Shown here in pieces: positions 15,312 through 49,810 of a stretch of 64,000 nucleotides of DNA; position 1 is the first letter of the stretch; every line of letters starts with the position of its first letter. Source of the DNA: a virus; the IMG/VR virus record IMGVR_UViG_3300026538_000054, positions 128,285 to 192,284 of that record; one strand, written 5' to 3'. The notes under the pieces are model-generated. The model worked only from the letters and a program-made list of their open reading frames with translations, was not told the DNA's origin and did no database searches. The position numbers and the translations under genes are program-made.

Positions 15312-15331
15312 ATTCTTTTCCGGAAAAGAAT
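15312..15331. promoter_or_regulatory. Perfect 20-bp palindrome ATTCTTTTCCGGAAAAGAAT (operator-like, recurrent)
   Basis: Perfect inverted symmetry; related copies at 30313, 43974, 52844, 55121 and a half-site at 62612. Confidence 0.6.
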
Positions 15332-15883: not shown

Positions 15884-16338
15884 TGTTCCACGAGATGAAC
15901 AAGATGATGGGCGGTGCTGTACCGCAGACCAGCCCCGGCCCAATCGGCCGGGGTTACCAGCACGGCAAAGCGCAGGGCGATGCACTGGCCGAAAAACTGC
16001 TCGAGGCCTTCAAAGAGGCGCTGGAGCGACAATCGGGCGTCACGGAGACAAAGGACTGCGAGGACAACTGTGAGGGCGGTTATCCCTCGTGCGAACCTCG
16101 CTCAAGCTGTTCGGCCGGCACGGGCATGCCGGCCGAAAGCGGCCGGCCGATCATGCTGGGCGACGTGGTTCGCCTCAAGTCGGGCGGCCCTTCGATGACC
16201 GTGATGTCCATCGTCAGGGGCCCGGCCAACCGTAGCGGGCTGGACGTGGCCATTACGACCTGGTTCGCCGACGCAGCGCGCCAGAGCGTCGGCGACTTCC
16301 CTAGCTGTTGTCTGGAGCTTGTCCCGCGCAGCATTTAG
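15883..16338 (+). CDS. DUF2158/YodC-domain protein
   Basis: C-terminal LGDVVRLKSGGPSMTV...TTWF is the YodC/DUF2158 signature; ATG 15883 overlaps the previous TGA. Confidence 0.7.
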   Translation: MFHEMNKMMGGAVPQTSPGPIGRGYQHGKAQGDALAEKLLEAFKEALERQSGVTETKDCEDNCEGGYPSCEPRSSCSAGTGMPAESGRPIMLGDVVRLKSGGPSMTVMSIVRGPANRSGLDVAITTWFADAARQSVGDFPSCCLELVPRSI

Positions 16339-16386
16339 CCCGCTACCTAGTGTGACAAAGCCCTCCGCAGCGGGCTAAGTGCTGCG
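16327..16386. repeat. 18-bp inverted repeat made of two head-to-head copies of the pseudoknot-like element
   Basis: CGCAGCATTTAGCCCGCT (16327-44) vs AGCGGGCTAAGTGCTGCG (16369-86), one G-T; full element AGCCC-tc-CGCAGC-GGGCT-aagt-GCTGCG at 16359-86. Confidence 0.7.
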
Positions 16387-35753: not shown

Positions 35754-35951
35754 ATGCAAGGACCGACGGTCGAGATCCTGGTGGACCAAGAAGGGAAGAT
35801 CACCTTCGAGGTCCAGGGCGTCAAGGGCGGCTCCTGTACGGAGCTCACCCGCGAGCTGCAAGCGCGAATGGGCGTGGTCACCGAGCAGAAGCTCAAGCCC
35901 GAGCACTTTGAGAGGCCGCCCGACGCCCGACTGACGACGTCTCAGCTATAA
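35754..35951 (+). CDS. DUF2997 domain protein
   Basis: VEILVDQEGKITFEVQGVKGGSCTELTRELQARMG..KPEHF; its stop is supplied by the 74-nt repeat. Confidence 0.8.
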   Translation: MQGPTVEILVDQEGKITFEVQGVKGGSCTELTRELQARMGVVTEQKLKPEHFERPPDARLTTSQL

Positions 35952-36013
35952 GGCCGCTGAGAAGGCCTTCATCTCTGATGGTAGACAACAGGTCAAGAGA
36001 GCGCAATAGCATG
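35940..36013 (+). repeat. 74-nt direct repeat, copy 1 (stop, two-stem element, -10-like, SD-like, ATG)
   Basis: 3 mismatches to 36962..37035; CTCAGC-tat-AAGGCC-GCTGAG-aa-GGCCTT. Confidence 0.9.
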
Positions 36014-36066
36014 TTCGACTGGCGTGACGATCTATCCTGCCAGAGGTCGACCAGAGGAGGCTGAGG

Positions 36067-36417
36067 GTGGAGAAGACCGTGCTCATCATCGACGAGCAGG
36101 GCCGCGCGCTTTACTTGGAGGGCCCCGGCGCGGGCCCTCCCCCTCCCGTTAAGAGCGTGTTCAAGCTCTCAAGACGGGCGGGCCGAGTGGAGCCGGTCAA
36201 GCTCTGGAAGCGACTGGCCTTCAGGGCCTTGCGTCTCCTCCTTGGAGACAAGGGCCGCATAGCCAGCTGGACCAGGTCCTGGAAAGGCCCCTGGCGCGCT
36301 GACTTGCGCCTCTCGGGCGGCCCGGTGCTTCACGAAGCAGCCACCAGGGAAGAGGCCGTGCGCATGGAGGTGCGCTGGCTGATCGATCACGACTTTGGAG
36401 ACGATGTAGCAACATGA
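36067..36417 (+). CDS. Small conserved partner of the DUF1257/DUF2997 module
   Basis: RRAGRVEP...WRADLRLSGGPVL..REEAVRMEVRWL resembles the planctomycete RASHVEP..WWADL..GGP protein. Confidence 0.6.
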   Translation: MEKTVLIIDEQGRALYLEGPGAGPPPPVKSVFKLSRRAGRVEPVKLWKRLAFRALRLLLGDKGRIASWTRSWKGPWRADLRLSGGPVLHEAATREEAVRMEVRWLIDHDFGDDVAT

Positions 36418-36713
36418 ACGCCGAAGAAGCGGCCAAGCTAATCGATAACGGCTGGAAGATCCTAATCTTCAAAGACGGACTGGGAACCTTCTCTGCCCTG
36501 GCCGTGGAAGAGCATCGAAGCGTTGACAAGGCCATGAGGGCCTGGCGCAACTACGAAGCACCGGAAGGTGCTACGCCTGACGAGATGGTCTTTGGCGGCC
36601 CTCACCGTCTGTGCGGCTGCGGCTTCACGGTGGCCGAGGCCCTGCACAGCCTGGTGGAGAAGGTGCTGTTTCGACGGCTGCCAGCGAAAGAAGAGAAGGA
36701 GGGAGGGGGATGA
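36414..36713 (+). CDS. Hypothetical protein
   Basis: ATGA overlap. Confidence 0.55.
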   Translation: MNAEEAAKLIDNGWKILIFKDGLGTFSALAVEEHRSVDKAMRAWRNYEAPEGATPDEMVFGGPHRLCGCGFTVAEALHSLVEKVLFRRLPAKEEKEGGG

Positions 36714-36973
36714 TCCTTGGTTTTACGGGAACTAGGCGGGGCATGACTCCCGCCCAGCGAGAGTCCGTGTCCTGGCTCCTGGCTGGTCGTGACCTTGCTC
36801 ATGTGCATCACGGCGGGGCGATCGGCGCGGACGCCGACTTCCATCGGCTGATCCTGGCGAATCGCCCTGACCTGGTCGGGACCATTCATCCCTGCGACAT
36901 CGAGTCGCAGCGCGAGGACTTCACCGTTGACGAGCTTCGCGGCCAGAACGGTCCAGCCGCTTCTCAGCTATAA
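36710..36973 (+). pseudogene. Probably truncated SLOG/DUF2493-like protein
   Basis: MILGFTGTRRGMTPAQ..HHGGAIGADADFH..IHP lacks the usual C-terminal RN..SGTW part; ends in repeat-derived SQL*. Confidence 0.5.
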
Positions 36974-37035
36974 GGCCGCTGAGGAGGCCTTCATCTCTGA
37001 TGGTAGACAACAAGTCAAGGGAGCGCAATAGCATG
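36962..37035 (+). repeat. 74-nt direct repeat, copy 2
   Basis: See copy 1; offset 1022 nt. Confidence 0.9.
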
Positions 37036-37129
37036 GTCGTCTGCGACCGTTGCGGCAGGGAGCCACGGGCCAGCCATTCCACGGCCACATGAGGGGTCGC
37101 ACATATCATCTACAAGGAAGACCGGTCTA

Positions 37130-38775
37130 GTAACCTATAAAGTGGGAGGCCCGTCAGGTAAGCCGGCAAGGCAATCGAGAGAGGAGCTCCGGCGTTGACT
37201 GCTGCCTGGGGGGTCTTGAAATCGCAATCGCGTTATTCACCTTGGCGGCGTTTCGCCAATATCTTGGCGGTCGAGACATGGGGGTGCTTGGGATCGTATT
37301 GGCGTGGCGTCTTTGGCTTCTTCGGCTTCGTGGGGGCTTTGCGATATTTTGACAAATCGACCTGGCGTGCCAATTCGAGCAATACCTTCGCCAATTCCGC
37401 GGCATTCATGTCCCCCAACGGCAGCCATTGCATCGGAGGAATGGCAATCATCATGCCGGTGTGCGTCCGCCGAATCTCACTGGTGATGTGATGCAGCGAG
37501 ACTTCCTTCTCCACCTTGTCCGTCCCATGGACCACACGCAACGCCGCCTTGATTACCGACAAGAGGTTATAGGCCAGCACCGTGACGCAAAACGCGAACA
37601 ACGCCGCCTTGGGATACCCCAGACGCGGATGCTCGCCTTGCAGCACATCGGTCAACACTTGGAACACGGTCTCGATTTTCCACCGCTTGAGATAGAGACG
37701 CGCCAAGGTCAAGGCACAGGCCTGCTCGACCGTCAGGTCGCACAGCAAGGCCACCTCCGTCTCTCCGTCCCGAGTCGGCTGGTCCAACTTGATGAGCACT
37801 CGCCGCAGTTCGAGCAGCCTGCCATCGTCGGCGGTGATCGTCACCTTCTGCTCCCAGACAGAGCCCGTCTCCACTCGGCCGACCAGACGCAGGTCGTCCC
37901 CCTTGGTCCAGGGCAAGTTCTTGTGCTCGCGCACCAACACGTGGGCCTTGCGGCGGAGGACCACGCCGCACAACCAGCCCACCGTGCAGAAGTTGCGATC
38001 TTCGATCCACAGTTCGCCCTCGAGCACGCTGTCCAACACCGGGCCCAACAGGGCGCGTTCCTGGGCGTGGCCGTCCTCACACGGGAAGACGTCGATAACC
38101 AATCCCAACTGCGGGTCGAACACGTTCAAGGTCTTGCCAGGCAAAGGAGCGGCGGCGATCTCGCGCAGCTCTTTGATGCGGTGTTGCGTGCCCGCCAGGC
38201 AGTTGCCGTCGAGGATCTTGACTCGGAAGCCGGGCAGCAGCGCCGGCAGGGAGCCGCCCAGCGCCTCGACGACTTCGGTCAGGCGCGCCGCGTTGTCGCG
38301 GACCAGTTGTTGCATCACCGGCAGTTCGACACCCTTGAGCTTTTCGTAAACATTGGTCAGCTCAACGGGAAAGAGGTCCCGGTGGTTCACGTAAACGGCG
38401 TGCGGGGATTTGTGGATACCACAGACGACCAACCCCATCATATCAACCAGCGTGGAGAACAGCAGCTTCTCCGTGTATTGAGTCGTGGCCGTCCGCTCGA
38501 ACAGTTCATCAATCGGCCCTGGCTGCAAGGCATGCTCCATCAGCCCCCGAGCCATTACCGTGATCGGGCTCTCATTCACGAATCGATCGAATACCGCTTC
38601 CAGAAGCATGGCAAATGGCTCCAGGTTCCCCAGGATCTTCCCCTGTTCAGCTTATACACGCCAACCGCTACTGAACAGGGCTGCAATAGCTCCCAATCGC
38701 ACATGTGTTCTTTTGTCCCCTGCTCCACCACCGTGAAATGGCTGGAGCCACGGGCCTCTATCGTTTCAAAGTTCA
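37130..38775 (-). mobile_element. IS4-family insertion sequence (ends approximate)
   Basis: Transposase plus imperfect terminal inverted repeats sharing GAGGCCCGT (37146-54 / 38750-58); no clear target duplication seen. Confidence 0.7.
37233..38609 (-). CDS. IS4-family DDE transposase
   Basis: KILDGNCL, WIEDRNFC, YLKRWKIETVF (YREK motif); intact 458-aa ORF. Confidence 0.92.
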   Translation of the reverse strand: MLLEAVFDRFVNESPITVMARGLMEHALQPGPIDELFERTATTQYTEKLLFSTLVDMMGLVVCGIHKSPHAVYVNHRDLFPVELTNVYEKLKGVELPVMQQLVRDNAARLTEVVEALGGSLPALLPGFRVKILDGNCLAGTQHRIKELREIAAAPLPGKTLNVFDPQLGLVIDVFPCEDGHAQERALLGPVLDSVLEGELWIEDRNFCTVGWLCGVVLRRKAHVLVREHKNLPWTKGDDLRLVGRVETGSVWEQKVTITADDGRLLELRRVLIKLDQPTRDGETEVALLCDLTVEQACALTLARLYLKRWKIETVFQVLTDVLQGEHPRLGYPKAALFAFCVTVLAYNLLSVIKAALRVVHGTDKVEKEVSLHHITSEIRRTHTGMMIAIPPMQWLPLGDMNAAELAKVLLELARQVDLSKYRKAPTKPKKPKTPRQYDPKHPHVSTAKILAKRRQGE

Positions 38776-39092: not shown

Positions 39093-39126
39093 GCTACTTC
39101 GCCCATGTCGTAGGCGGCGTGGGCGT

Positions 39127-39173
39127 TGCGGCATTTAGCCAGCCGCAGAGGGCTTTGATGCAGTTGTCATACT
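39127..39173 (+). repeat. Pseudoknot-like element plus TGT-CATACT
   Basis: TGCGGC-attt-AGCCA-GCCGCA-ga-GGGCT; homologous to 45778-45824; upstream of ATG 39191. Confidence 0.7.
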
Positions 39174-44463: not shown

Positions 44464-44622
44464 CCGACTACCTACTGGGTTGGCTGCAGCGACGGCGGCA
44501 TTTCACGACTTTGAGGCCGCCGTGTAGGCCTTTCTGTGAACCTTACCATTACGCTGGTGCCACCAGCGTAATGGTAAACAGGAAATCTGTCAACTACTCG
44601 TTTCACCAGGAGAAGTACGTTC

Positions 44623-49738: not shown

Positions 49739-49810
49739 TCCCTGCTAATCTCAGGTTCGCCCTTCCCCGGCCCTGCGCGGCGGGCGTAATGCCGCGAAGA
49801 GAAAAACACC

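What the first reader, a model, noticed from the sequence alone, without database searches (positions are those of the whole stretch)
35940..37035. 74-nt direct repeat that is a complete stop/structure/promoter/SD/ATG cassette
The copies at 35940-36013 and 36962-37035 differ by 3 A/G changes, none in a stem. Each gives a TAA to the upstream gene (both DUF2997 and the SLOG-like ORF end SQL*). Each then carries the two-stem element, TGG-TAGACA, an SD-like AAG(A/G)GAG and a terminal ATG. The SLOG-like gene looks truncated by it, and the ATGs open only very short ORFs (MFDWRDD.., MVVCDRC..). This suggests a recently duplicated portable expression unit that lands in or replaces accessory genes. Recombination between the copies could excise the ~1 kb, three-gene block.
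Basis: partly seen in the sequence, partly recalled or inferred. Interest (0 to 1): 0.75.

Follow-up and report, generated by a model that had tools for sequence, protein, structure and literature searches.

The report
Duplicated promoter-plus-Cas12m-repeat module in phage
The 82-base direct repeat is real, but it most likely is two recently inserted copies of a small unit read on the opposite strand: a promoter-like stretch followed by a diverged single copy of the CRISPR repeat of this large phage's own Cas12m protein, one of about 45 such units in the genome, and here each sits where accessory genes were split or deleted.

Summary
Observation confirmed. Window 35940-36021 and 36962-37043 are 82 nt and 94% identical, and both copies recur in independent assemblies.

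Interpretation partly supported. Close relatives show that the element supplies SQL-TAA to DUF2997 (native end RGG*) and to a truncated SLOG-like gene (87 aa here, 127-153 aa elsewhere). Copy 1 is a 113-nt insertion. Copy 2 marks a deletion.

The plus-strand "promoter/SD/ATG cassette" reading fails. The ATGs open 17- and 22-aa ORFs, and the downstream gene keeps its ancestral SD.

The first 37 nt, read on the minus strand, are a diverged solitary copy of the CRISPR repeat of the phage's own type V-M Cas12m system (628-aa effector and 18-repeat array, outside the window). Stem and pseudoknot are kept by compensatory changes. A model built only from array-type repeats hits both copies full-length on the minus strand.

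The other 45 nt lie upstream and carry a -10-like TACCAT, as in half of the ~43 dispersed repeat units.

Likely product: an antisense crRNA-like RNA. Its function is unproven. A kin-targeting test at copy 1 found CTG, not TTN, at the PAM position.

Other agents of this scan had already reported the dispersed network on other windows of this genome.

The parts
35939..35975 (-). Copy 1, 37-nt solitary Cas12m-repeat-like scaffold (AGGCC/GGCCT stem, TCAGC/GCTGA pseudoknot helix, 3' tail GAC)
   Evidence: Covariance model R1, built only from array-type repeats outside the window, hits it full-length on the minus strand at 18.8 bits, E about 0.003. Alignment and pair counts.
36961..36997 (-). Copy 2, the same 37-nt scaffold (loop TCC instead of TTC, 3' tail GAA)
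   Evidence: R1 hit full-length on the minus strand, 19.4 bits, E about 0.002.
35976..36021 (-). Copy 1, conserved part upstream of the scaffold on the minus strand: -10-like TACCAT (35978-35983) and -35-like TTGCGC (36001-36006), 17-nt spacer
   Evidence: Read. TACCAT is kept in all three copies. A -10-like hexamer lies at the equivalent place in 8 of 9 AGGCC-type units and 21 of 43 units overall, against 1.3 expected. It did not pass the consensus sigma-70 scan. No TSS data.
36998..37043 (-). Copy 2, the same upstream part (TACCAT 37000-37005; TTGCGC 37023-37028)
35939..36051 (.). 113-nt insertion relative to close relatives (boundaries ambiguous by 4 nt: CGAC occurs at both junctions). It comprises the 82-nt module plus about 30 unique nt
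   Evidence: Relatives' DUF2997 ends TT-RGG*, with the next gene 2 nt after the stop. The window keeps that native end downstream of the insert. L016, 95-97% identical in the flanks, diverges at the same point.
36053..36064 (+). Stranded native end of DUF2997 (AGA GGA GGC TGA = RGG*), which also holds the SD of the 116-aa gene (GTG at 36067)
   Evidence: Matches the C-termini of P0016 and P0017 and the stop-NN-start spacing in relatives' contigs.
35754..35951 (+). DUF2997 gene, 65 aa; its last 3 codons and TAA come from the module
   Evidence: Pfam PF11211 E 1.9e-14.
36067..36713 (+). Two ancestral small genes (116 aa at 36067-36417, 99 aa at 36414-36713) between the copies
   Evidence: Same genes in the same order in relatives that lack the repeat; no family hit.
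36710..36973 (+). Truncated SLOG-like gene (87 aa). Homology to full-length relatives ends at G78 (36943). Then 18 nt of unknown origin (36944-36961), then SQL-TAA from the module
   Evidence: Full-length relatives give only sub-threshold YspA/DprA/deoxyribosyltransferase hits.
37072..38743 (-). IS4-type insertion sequence (458-aa DDE transposase, 13-nt terminal inverted repeats), with a 13-bp target duplication GGAGCCACGGGCC at 37059-37071 and 38744-38756. It lies 28 nt after copy 2
   Evidence: Present in the independent assemblies; no transposase gene is called in the relatives' contigs.
39125..39161 (-). Third minus-strand solitary repeat unit nearby (array type), with TGCTAGTAT upstream. 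It sits where a 118-aa gene of relatives is cut to 30 aa
   Evidence: R1 hit 46 bits, E 2e-10; sequence; gene lengths.

Best explanation
Each copy is a compact promoter-plus-solitary-CRISPR-repeat module that reads on the minus strand, antisense to the genes around it. Its 3' 37 nt are a diverged copy of the 37-nt repeat of the phage's own type V-M CRISPR-Cas12m system. They keep the stem-plus-pseudoknot fold of a Cas12m crRNA scaffold through compensatory changes. Its 5' 45 nt carry a -10-like TACCAT a few bases before the scaffold. The module entered this phage lineage recently and was duplicated. Copy 1 is a clean 113-nt insertion three codons before the end of DUF2997. Copy 2 sits at a deletion that removed the last third of a SLOG-like gene and the next gene. 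The TAA that ends both broken genes is an accident of the repeat's loop (TATA plus A) read backwards. Inferred, not shown: each module is transcribed into a short RNA made of the scaffold followed by the antisense of the upstream gene's 3' end. That is a crRNA-like RNA that the phage's Cas12m could load. Which role it plays (guide against related phages, control of the phage's own genes, or decoy) is open.
For: Family membership. The record (193 kb, IMG/VR provirus) has a 628-aa ORF matching solved Cas12m (PDB 23vw, E 2.8e-52) next to an 18-repeat array. About 43 further solitary or mini-array repeats are nearly all intergenic. In a 47-sequence alignment the finding's copies fit in register. 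The stem pair C-G becomes G-C in 9 units including these. 5 of 11 pairs have changes on both sides. A pair not used to select the sequences (columns 15/35) is paired in 46 of 47 with three pair types. Model R1, built from array-type repeats outside the window only, hits both copies full-length on the minus strand (19.4 and 18.8 bits, E 0.002-0.003) and does not hit them on the plus strand. The fold maps onto the published MmCas12m2 scaffold: stem, pseudoknot, G(-3) A(-2) C(-1) tail (PMC10442227). Module limits. Homology between the copies stops within 1 nt of the scaffold's 3' end, as expected for leader plus repeat followed by different spacers. Promoter. TAnnnT ends 4-18 nt upstream in 21 of 43 units, against 1.3 expected (maximum 6 in 2000 trials) and 4 on the opposite side. 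TGnTAnnnT occurs in 13, against 0.11 expected. 8 of 9 AGGCC-type units have a -10-like hexamer. The array leader has TGCTACGCT. Copy 3 has the extended form TGCTACCAT. Recent insertion: (see parts).
Against: No transcript data, and the promoter is only promoter-like: 7 of 12 matches to the sigma-70 consensus, the TG is one base out of place in copies 1 and 2, and the consensus scan found nothing. The CM scores are modest and its E-values are rough. The variant differs from the array repeat at positions that MmCas12m2 reads base-specifically. The -1 base is A in copies 2 and 3, and the G:A pair is replaced, so binding by this Cas12m is unproven. The selection of family members required pairing, so the percentage paired is partly circular. 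The guide parts have no second match in the genome. At the empty site of relatives the PAM position of copy 1's guide reads CTG, whereas the only protospacer found for this array has TTG. L016 also has 3 mismatches in the first 9 guide positions. Relatives' DNA was available for one contig only; the rest rests on proteins and gene coordinates.
Confidence: 0.6

Rival explanations
1. One reading: a plus-strand portable expression cassette (stop, stem-loops, promoter TGG-TAGACA, SD, ATG), like the PeSL promoter-terminator cassettes of T4-type phages. It drives downstream genes and mediates modular shuffling.
For: The copies do sit at insertion and deletion junctions in a variable accessory-gene region and supply stop codons, as PeSLs do (PMC2839356). 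At copy 3 the terminal ATG opens a 73-aa ORF that looks like a membrane protein.
Against: The ATG ORFs at the two copies are 17 and 22 aa and unrelated. TAGACA lacks the T at position 6 of a -10 hexamer, and no promoter or terminator match was found. The 116-aa gene uses its ancestral SD, not the cassette's. The family's strand is fixed by the array and cas12m, and the CM hits these copies only on the minus strand. The -10-like hexamers of the family lie on the minus-strand side.
Confidence: 0.1
2. Inert recombination scar or selfish repeat. The units are decayed CRISPR-repeat copies with no RNA function of their own. They spread and persist only because they are hot spots for recombination or template switching, and the stops and truncations are collateral damage.
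For: Three units within 3.3 kb are absent from relatives, and two lie at deletions. The guides have no targets in the genome. The variant departs from base-specific contacts known for MmCas12m2. A second AGGCC-type module pair is 88% identical over 98 nt, which shows that modules get copied.
Against: Both helices are kept by compensatory changes across about 43 units. A -10-like element is kept at a fixed distance, with different hexamers in independent lineages. Both point to selection on an RNA product.
Confidence: 0.15
3. RNA anti-CRISPR-like decoy. The AGGCC-type variant mimics the repeat of a different Cas12m (host or rival phage) and soaks it up.
For: Viral solitary repeat units just downstream of a promoter are the hallmark of Racrs (PMC10651486). 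The variant differs from the phage's own repeat.
Against: No array or other copy with this variant repeat was found in IMG/VR or in 185,579 species genomes by pattern scan. The phage has its own cognate system. Racr-bearing elements usually lack cas genes.
Confidence: 0.08
4. A minus-strand micro-ORF (MLLRSLDLLSTIRDEGLLSGLIAE...) is the conserved feature.
For: A related peptide is encoded at copy 3.
Against: No SD. GC3 is about 50%, against about 78% in the genes called here. The C-termini are unrelated. With only three substitutions the pattern is weak, and conservation is already explained by scaffold plus promoter.
Confidence: 0.03

Closest known systems
Viral solitary repeat units (SRUs) and RNA anti-CRISPRs (Racrs); Camara-Wilpert et al. 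2023, PMC10651486. The SRU concept is from Faure et al. 2019, as cited there.
   Same: A single CRISPR-repeat-like unit in a virus genome, immediately downstream of a promoter-like element, keeping the repeat's RNA fold.
   Different: Here the phage carries the cognate effector (Cas12m) and an 18-repeat array itself. It has about 43 units rather than one or a few. These two units are antisense to flanking genes and lie at fresh insertion and deletion junctions. No inhibition has been shown.
Type V-M CRISPR-Cas12m crRNA scaffold (MmCas12m2, PMC10442227; other Cas12m, PMC11013384); phage MvCas12m (bioRxiv 10.64898/2026.09.14.751636)
   Same: 37-nt unit with a 5-bp stem, a 5-7-bp pseudoknot helix and a G-A-C tail next to the guide. 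The effector is a Cas12m homologue without cas1, cas2 or a tracrRNA, as described for the one reported phage Cas12m.
   Different: The finding's units are solitary, diverged (about 65% identical to the array repeat) and changed at the -1 and G:A positions. The MvCas12m preprint text searched does not contain the words solitary, dispersed or orphan repeat.
PeSL mobile regulatory cassettes of T4-type phages (Arbiol et al. 2010, PMC2839356; PMC4122927)
   Same: Short promoter-plus-stem-loop units repeated in accessory-gene regions, found at insertion, deletion and replacement junctions between close relatives. Direct copies could recombine.
   Different: PeSLs are co-directional with the genes and are sigma-70 early promoters plus terminators. 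These units are antisense, have no terminator, and their stem-loop is a CRISPR repeat.
CRISPR repeat-like regulatory RNAs (crlRNA, CreR and the like; Shmakov et al., bioRxiv 10.1101/2023.03.03.530964 = PMC10120712; 10.1101/2024.12.27.630466)
   Same: A stand-alone repeat plus adjacent sequence acts as a guide that lets the effector repress promoters rather than destroy targets. Cas12m is a binder that blocks transcription.
   Different: Known cases lie in or near cas loci and have a partially matching target. For these two units no target other than the locus itself was found.
TnpB omega-RNA at IS200/IS605 right ends (from general knowledge, not tested here)
   Same: The guide scaffold sits at the edge of an inserted element and the guide is the flanking DNA. 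The empty site would be the target.
   Different: No transposase and no TAM/PAM at the empty site (CTG). Cas12m is reported as non-cleaving.

Membership tests
Dispersed Cas12m-repeat units of this phage (type V-M repeat family) | Sequence and structure match to the array repeat, on a defined strand | tested here: met
   CM built without any window sequence or AGGCC-type unit hits both copies full-length on the minus strand, 19.4 and 18.8 bits, E 0.002-0.003. The score is modest.
Dispersed Cas12m-repeat units of this phage (type V-M repeat family) | Interleaved stem and pseudoknot helix kept by compensatory changes | tested here: met
   Stem pair C-G becomes G-C. Pseudoknot GCAGC/GCTGC becomes TCAGC/GCTGA. 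The extra pair 15/35 is C-G. Family-wide, 5 of 11 pairs change on both sides.
Dispersed Cas12m-repeat units of this phage (type V-M repeat family) | Cognate effector and array in the same genome | tested here: met
   628-aa Cas12m homologue (PDB 23vw, E 2.8e-52) beside an 18-repeat array at C1:27016-28311.
Dispersed Cas12m-repeat units of this phage (type V-M repeat family) | Bound and processed by Cas12m | not testable with these tools
   Needs RNA-protein binding or RIP-seq. The -1 base is C in copy 1 but A in copies 2 and 3, and the base at -1 is read specifically in MmCas12m2.
Viral SRU / Racr | Solitary repeat directly downstream of a promoter in a virus | tested here: inconclusive
   -10-like TACCAT lies 9 nt before the stem, and such hexamers are strongly enriched family-wide. 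It fails the consensus scan. No TSS data.
Viral SRU / Racr | Mimics the repeat of a CRISPR system that attacks the virus, and inhibits it | tested here: not met
   The nearest repeat is the phage's own. No array with the variant repeat was found in IMG/VR or in the genome collection. Inhibition itself is not testable here.
PeSL-type promoter-terminator cassette | Sigma-70 promoter plus terminator stem-loop, co-directional with the genes | tested here: not met
   No promoter or terminator match on the plus strand. No T run after the stems. The family's strand is the minus strand.
PeSL-type promoter-terminator cassette | Located at insertion, deletion or replacement junctions between close relatives | tested here: met
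   Copy 1 is a 113-nt insertion. Copy 2 and the unit at 39125 lie at deletions. L016 has an 88-aa gene at the copy 1 site.
Self-homing or kin-targeting guide (repeat planted on the target's PAM) | The empty allele carries a PAM next to the sequence that serves as guide | tested here: not met
   The empty site reads CTG before the copy 1 guide sequence (inferred from the stranded native end, and seen in L016). The one protospacer of this array has TTG. The PAM rests on a single case.

The most novel reading that the evidence does not exclude
The promoter-plus-repeat module is a mobile guide-RNA gene. Wherever it lands it turns the neighbouring phage DNA into a Cas12m guide. It spreads within and between related phages at the cost of accessory genes, so the phage builds a second, non-adaptive CRISPR memory out of its own genome, for silencing kin or timing its own genes.
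Probability: 0.15. Interest if true: 0.9.

Novelty: new variant of a known kind. Interest (0 to 1): 0.62.

Why it matters
Solitary CRISPR repeats in viruses are known as decoys against host immunity, and stand-alone repeats near cas genes are known as regulators. This case differs in three ways.

- A large phage with its own non-cutting Cas12m carries dozens of promoter-equipped single repeats.
- This locus shows that they are recent arrivals. Relatives that are 95-97% identical lack all three units in a 3.3-kb stretch.
- The arrivals split or deleted genes.

That gives a dated, polarised case of CRISPR-repeat units behaving like mobile DNA. It also gives concrete RNAs to test as natural Cas12m guides.

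If the RNAs are loaded, this would be a way to make guides without spacer acquisition. If not, it is a new kind of repeat-mediated gene loss in phage accessory regions.

Tried and rejected
- **Exact-pattern scans for the element.** IMG/VR and JGI metagenomes gave 0 hits. Degenerate AGGCC-type repeat: 0 in IMG/VR and 0 in the species genomes. Array-type repeat: 0 in IMG/VR. In the species genomes it gave two lone weak hits in MAGs, without arrays. The own record and very near ones are left out by these tools.
- **The search for related loci.** The 168-aa neighbour gave only distant phages (36-56% aa) with no repeat units.
- **Relatives' DNA.** The most informative contigs (JGI 3300041967, Logan SRR33118860) could not be fetched, so only gene coordinates and proteins were used.
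- **Rfam.** No family matched on the array region.
- **Pfam and PHROGs.** No hit for the 116-, 99- and 87-aa proteins.
- **Flank origin.** The unique flanks of the modules (about 30 nt right of copy 1, 18 nt left of copy 2) have no other copy in the genome, so their origin is unknown.
- **Terminal inverted repeats or a clear target duplication for the 113-nt insert.** Only a 4-nt CGAC repeat was found.
- **H-type pseudoknot on the plus strand as a frameshift signal.** Dropped, because the structure is the mirror image of the minus-strand scaffold and no extended frame exists.
- **Plus-strand peptide LSYKAAEKAFISDGRQQVKRAQ.** Dropped, because 2 of 3 differences are non-synonymous.
Full report
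**1. The observation**

The window holds two copies of an 82-nt sequence at 35940-36021 and 36962-37043. They are 94% identical and 1022 nt apart in direct orientation. A 26-mer from the core occurs twice in the window and never in 100 shuffles.

Both upstream ORFs run into the repeat and end SQL-TAA. These are DUF2997 (Pfam E 1.9e-14) and an 87-aa ORF.

The layout is not an assembly artefact. Contigs from four other samples are 99.96-100% identical. The two that span the locus carry both copies with their private differences. One short contig breaks inside copy 1, as repeats often cause.

**2. What the repeat belongs to**

The window is part of a 193-kb IMG/VR record. A search of the whole record found a third partial copy and, unexpectedly, a CRISPR array at C1:27016-28311. 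The array has 18 repeats of 37 nt. Dozens of single copies of that repeat are scattered through the genome.

The 628-aa ORF just upstream of the array matches a solved Cas12m (PDB 23vw, E 2.8e-52). It has the TnpB/Cas12f-type zinc ribbon.

I reached the array link before consulting earlier notes of this scan. Those notes had already described the Cas12m system and about 47 dispersed repeats on other windows of this genome. The name Cas12m came from them and was then checked.

**3. Fit of the finding's copies to the repeat family**

The first 37 nt of each copy, read on the minus strand, align in register with the repeat family. The array repeat is built as: 7-nt flank, AGCCC, 3-nt loop, GCAGC, GGGCT, 4-nt loop, GCTGC, GAC. 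That makes a stem interleaved with a second helix.

The finding's copies read: AGGCC, TTC or TCC, TCAGC, GGCCT, TATA, GCTGA, GAC or GAA. Both helices are kept by changes on both sides.

Over 47 distinct units:
- 5 of 11 pairs show double changes.
- An extra pair that played no part in selecting the sequences is paired in 46 of 47, with three pair types.

The fold corresponds to the published MmCas12m2 scaffold: a stem, a pseudoknot that stacks on it, and a G-A-C tail next to the guide (PMC10442227).

As an independent test I built a covariance model from 33 array-type repeats. None came from the window and none was of the AGGCC type. Run without filters over the window, it finds the six canonical units. 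It also finds the two copies, full-length, on the minus strand only, at 19.4 and 18.8 bits (E about 0.002-0.003, rough). Membership is therefore supported, with a modest score.

**4. Strand and limits of the module**

The family's strand is set by the array and cas12m. On that strand the two copies lie on the minus strand of the window. The 82-nt homology then reads as 45 nt of upstream sequence followed by the scaffold. It stops within 1 nt of the scaffold's 3' end. That is the pattern of leader plus repeat followed by a different spacer.

The upstream part carries TACCAT 9 nt before the stem and TTGCGC 17 nt further up. Copy 3 has the extended form TGCTACCAT. The array leader and many solitary units have TGnTAnnAT 14 nt before the stem.

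Counts over the 43 units:

| Feature | Observed | Expected or control |
|---|---|---|
| TAnnnT ending 4-18 nt upstream | 21 of 43 | 1.3 at random positions (maximum 6 in 2000 trials); 4 on the other side |
| TGnTAnnnT | 13 | 0.11 |
| -10-like hexamer in AGGCC-type units | 8 of 9 | different hexamers in four independent lineages |

The consensus sigma-70 scan found nothing on either strand. The promoter is therefore inferred from family-wide conservation, not shown.

**5. Relatives: polarity of the changes**

*DUF2997.* In three close relatives the protein is identical for 62 residues and ends RGG* or RGS*. The window still holds AGA GGA GGC TGA at 36053-36064, 2 nt before the GTG of the 116-aa gene. 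That is the same stop-NN-start spacing as in two relatives' contigs.

Copy 1 is therefore a 113-nt insertion (35939-36051). Its limits are ambiguous by the 4-nt CGAC found at both junctions. It lies three codons before the native stop, and its left end coincides with the scaffold's 3' end. Contig L016 is 95-97% identical in the flanks. It diverges at the same point and has an 88-aa gene there instead.

*SLOG-like ORF.* It is 87 aa here and 127-153 aa in 13 homologues, the closest 92% identical over the aligned stretch. Identity ends at residue 78, followed by QNGPAA and then SQL* from the module.

*Gene order.*
- Relatives: DUF2997, 116, (43), 99, SLOG 127/138, 141, 100, 118, 249.
- Here: DUF2997, copy 1, 116, 99, SLOG', copy 2, IS, 100, a 30-aa stump of the 118-aa gene, a third minus-strand repeat unit (39125-39161), 248.

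Three units within 3.3 kb are thus absent from relatives, and two mark deletions. The three genes between the copies are ancestral, not cargo.

**6. The plus-strand reading**

- The terminal ATGs open 17 aa at copy 1. At copy 2 the ORF is 22 aa once the IS with its 13-bp target duplication is removed.
- The 116-aa gene keeps its ancestral SD.
- TAGACA lacks the T at position 6 of a -10 hexamer.
- No T run follows the stems.

The stop codon comes from the scaffold's 4-nt loop TATA plus the A of the stem, read backwards.

**7. Function**

The committed reading is that each module makes a minus-strand crRNA-like RNA: the scaffold followed by the antisense of the upstream gene's 3' end. This step is inferred.

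The first 30 nt after each scaffold have no second match in the genome.

The empty allele reads CTG before the copy 1 guide sequence. The only protospacer of this array that I could find (spacer 1, a self match) has TTG. L016 also has three mismatches in the first nine guide positions. At this locus the idea is not supported, although the PAM rests on one case.

A decoy role against a foreign Cas12m finds no matching array in the collections.

A minus-strand micro-ORF is unlikely, even though all three differences are synonymous in its frame. It has no SD, its GC3 is about 50% against about 78% in called genes, and the tails are unrelated.

**8. Comparison with what is known**

The nearest kinds are:
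- viral solitary repeat units / Racrs (PMC10651486);
- repeat-like regulatory RNAs (PMC10120712);
- for the genome-plasticity side, PeSL cassettes (PMC2839356).

A phage Cas12m has been reported once, in a 2026 preprint. Its text does not contain the words solitary, dispersed or orphan repeat.

The combination here is a new variant: own effector, dozens of promoter-equipped single repeats, and fresh insertion and deletion junctions.

Noticed in passing
window 38699-38734 (right end of the IS at 37072-38743) and C1:28086-28121: Spacer 15 of the phage's Cas12m array matches the end of the IS4-type element inserted next to copy 2 at 34 of 36 positions. The 5' flank is ATC, not TTN. The phage seems to carry a memory of an IS family that now sits in its own genome.
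   Followed up: partly
window 37059-38756: IS4-type element (458-aa DDE transposase) with 13-nt terminal inverted repeats and a 13-bp target duplication GGAGCCACGGGCC. It is present in the independent assemblies of this phage, and no transposase gene is called in the relatives' contigs.
   Followed up: yes
13 sites genome-wide, in the window at 15317, 30317 and 43975: The palindrome TTTTCCGGAAAA occurs 13 times against 0.07 expected. Most sites are intergenic, and several lie 25-45 nt upstream of solitary repeat units. It may be an operator or a phage promoter element.
   Followed up: partly
C1:88068-88165 and window about 44480-44580 (C1:172767-172865, minus): A second duplicated module is 88% identical over 98 nt. 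It has a 15-bp-stem hairpin (TTACCATTACGCTGG and its complement) containing TGGTAAGGT, then an AGGCC-type repeat unit, then about 18 more shared nt.
   Followed up: partly
C1:61030-61200 (L008): Two AGGCC-type units face outwards from a perfect 173-nt palindrome centred on TTTTCCGGAAAA. They are followed by a two-repeat mini-array with its own TGCTACGAT.
   Followed up: no
C1:27053-27090 versus C1:37632-37669: Spacer 1 of the array matches the phage's own genome perfectly, with TTG at the PAM position.
   Followed up: partly
C1:81385-84417 (L009:5385-8417): A 1010-aa ORF with an RNA polymerase Rpb1 domain 5 and a Hint (intein) module. Its stop codon overlaps the first base of a repeat unit's stem.
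   Followed up: no
L016:1121-1516 and 2280-2606: The 95-97% identical relative carries two small genes (126 aa, 88 aa) that this phage lacks. The region is hypervariable among kin.
   Followed up: partly
window 49770-49798 (+) and 16328-16346 (-): Two partial matches to the repeat model (23 and 21.7 bits). The first is near the terminase and intein region.
   Followed up: no
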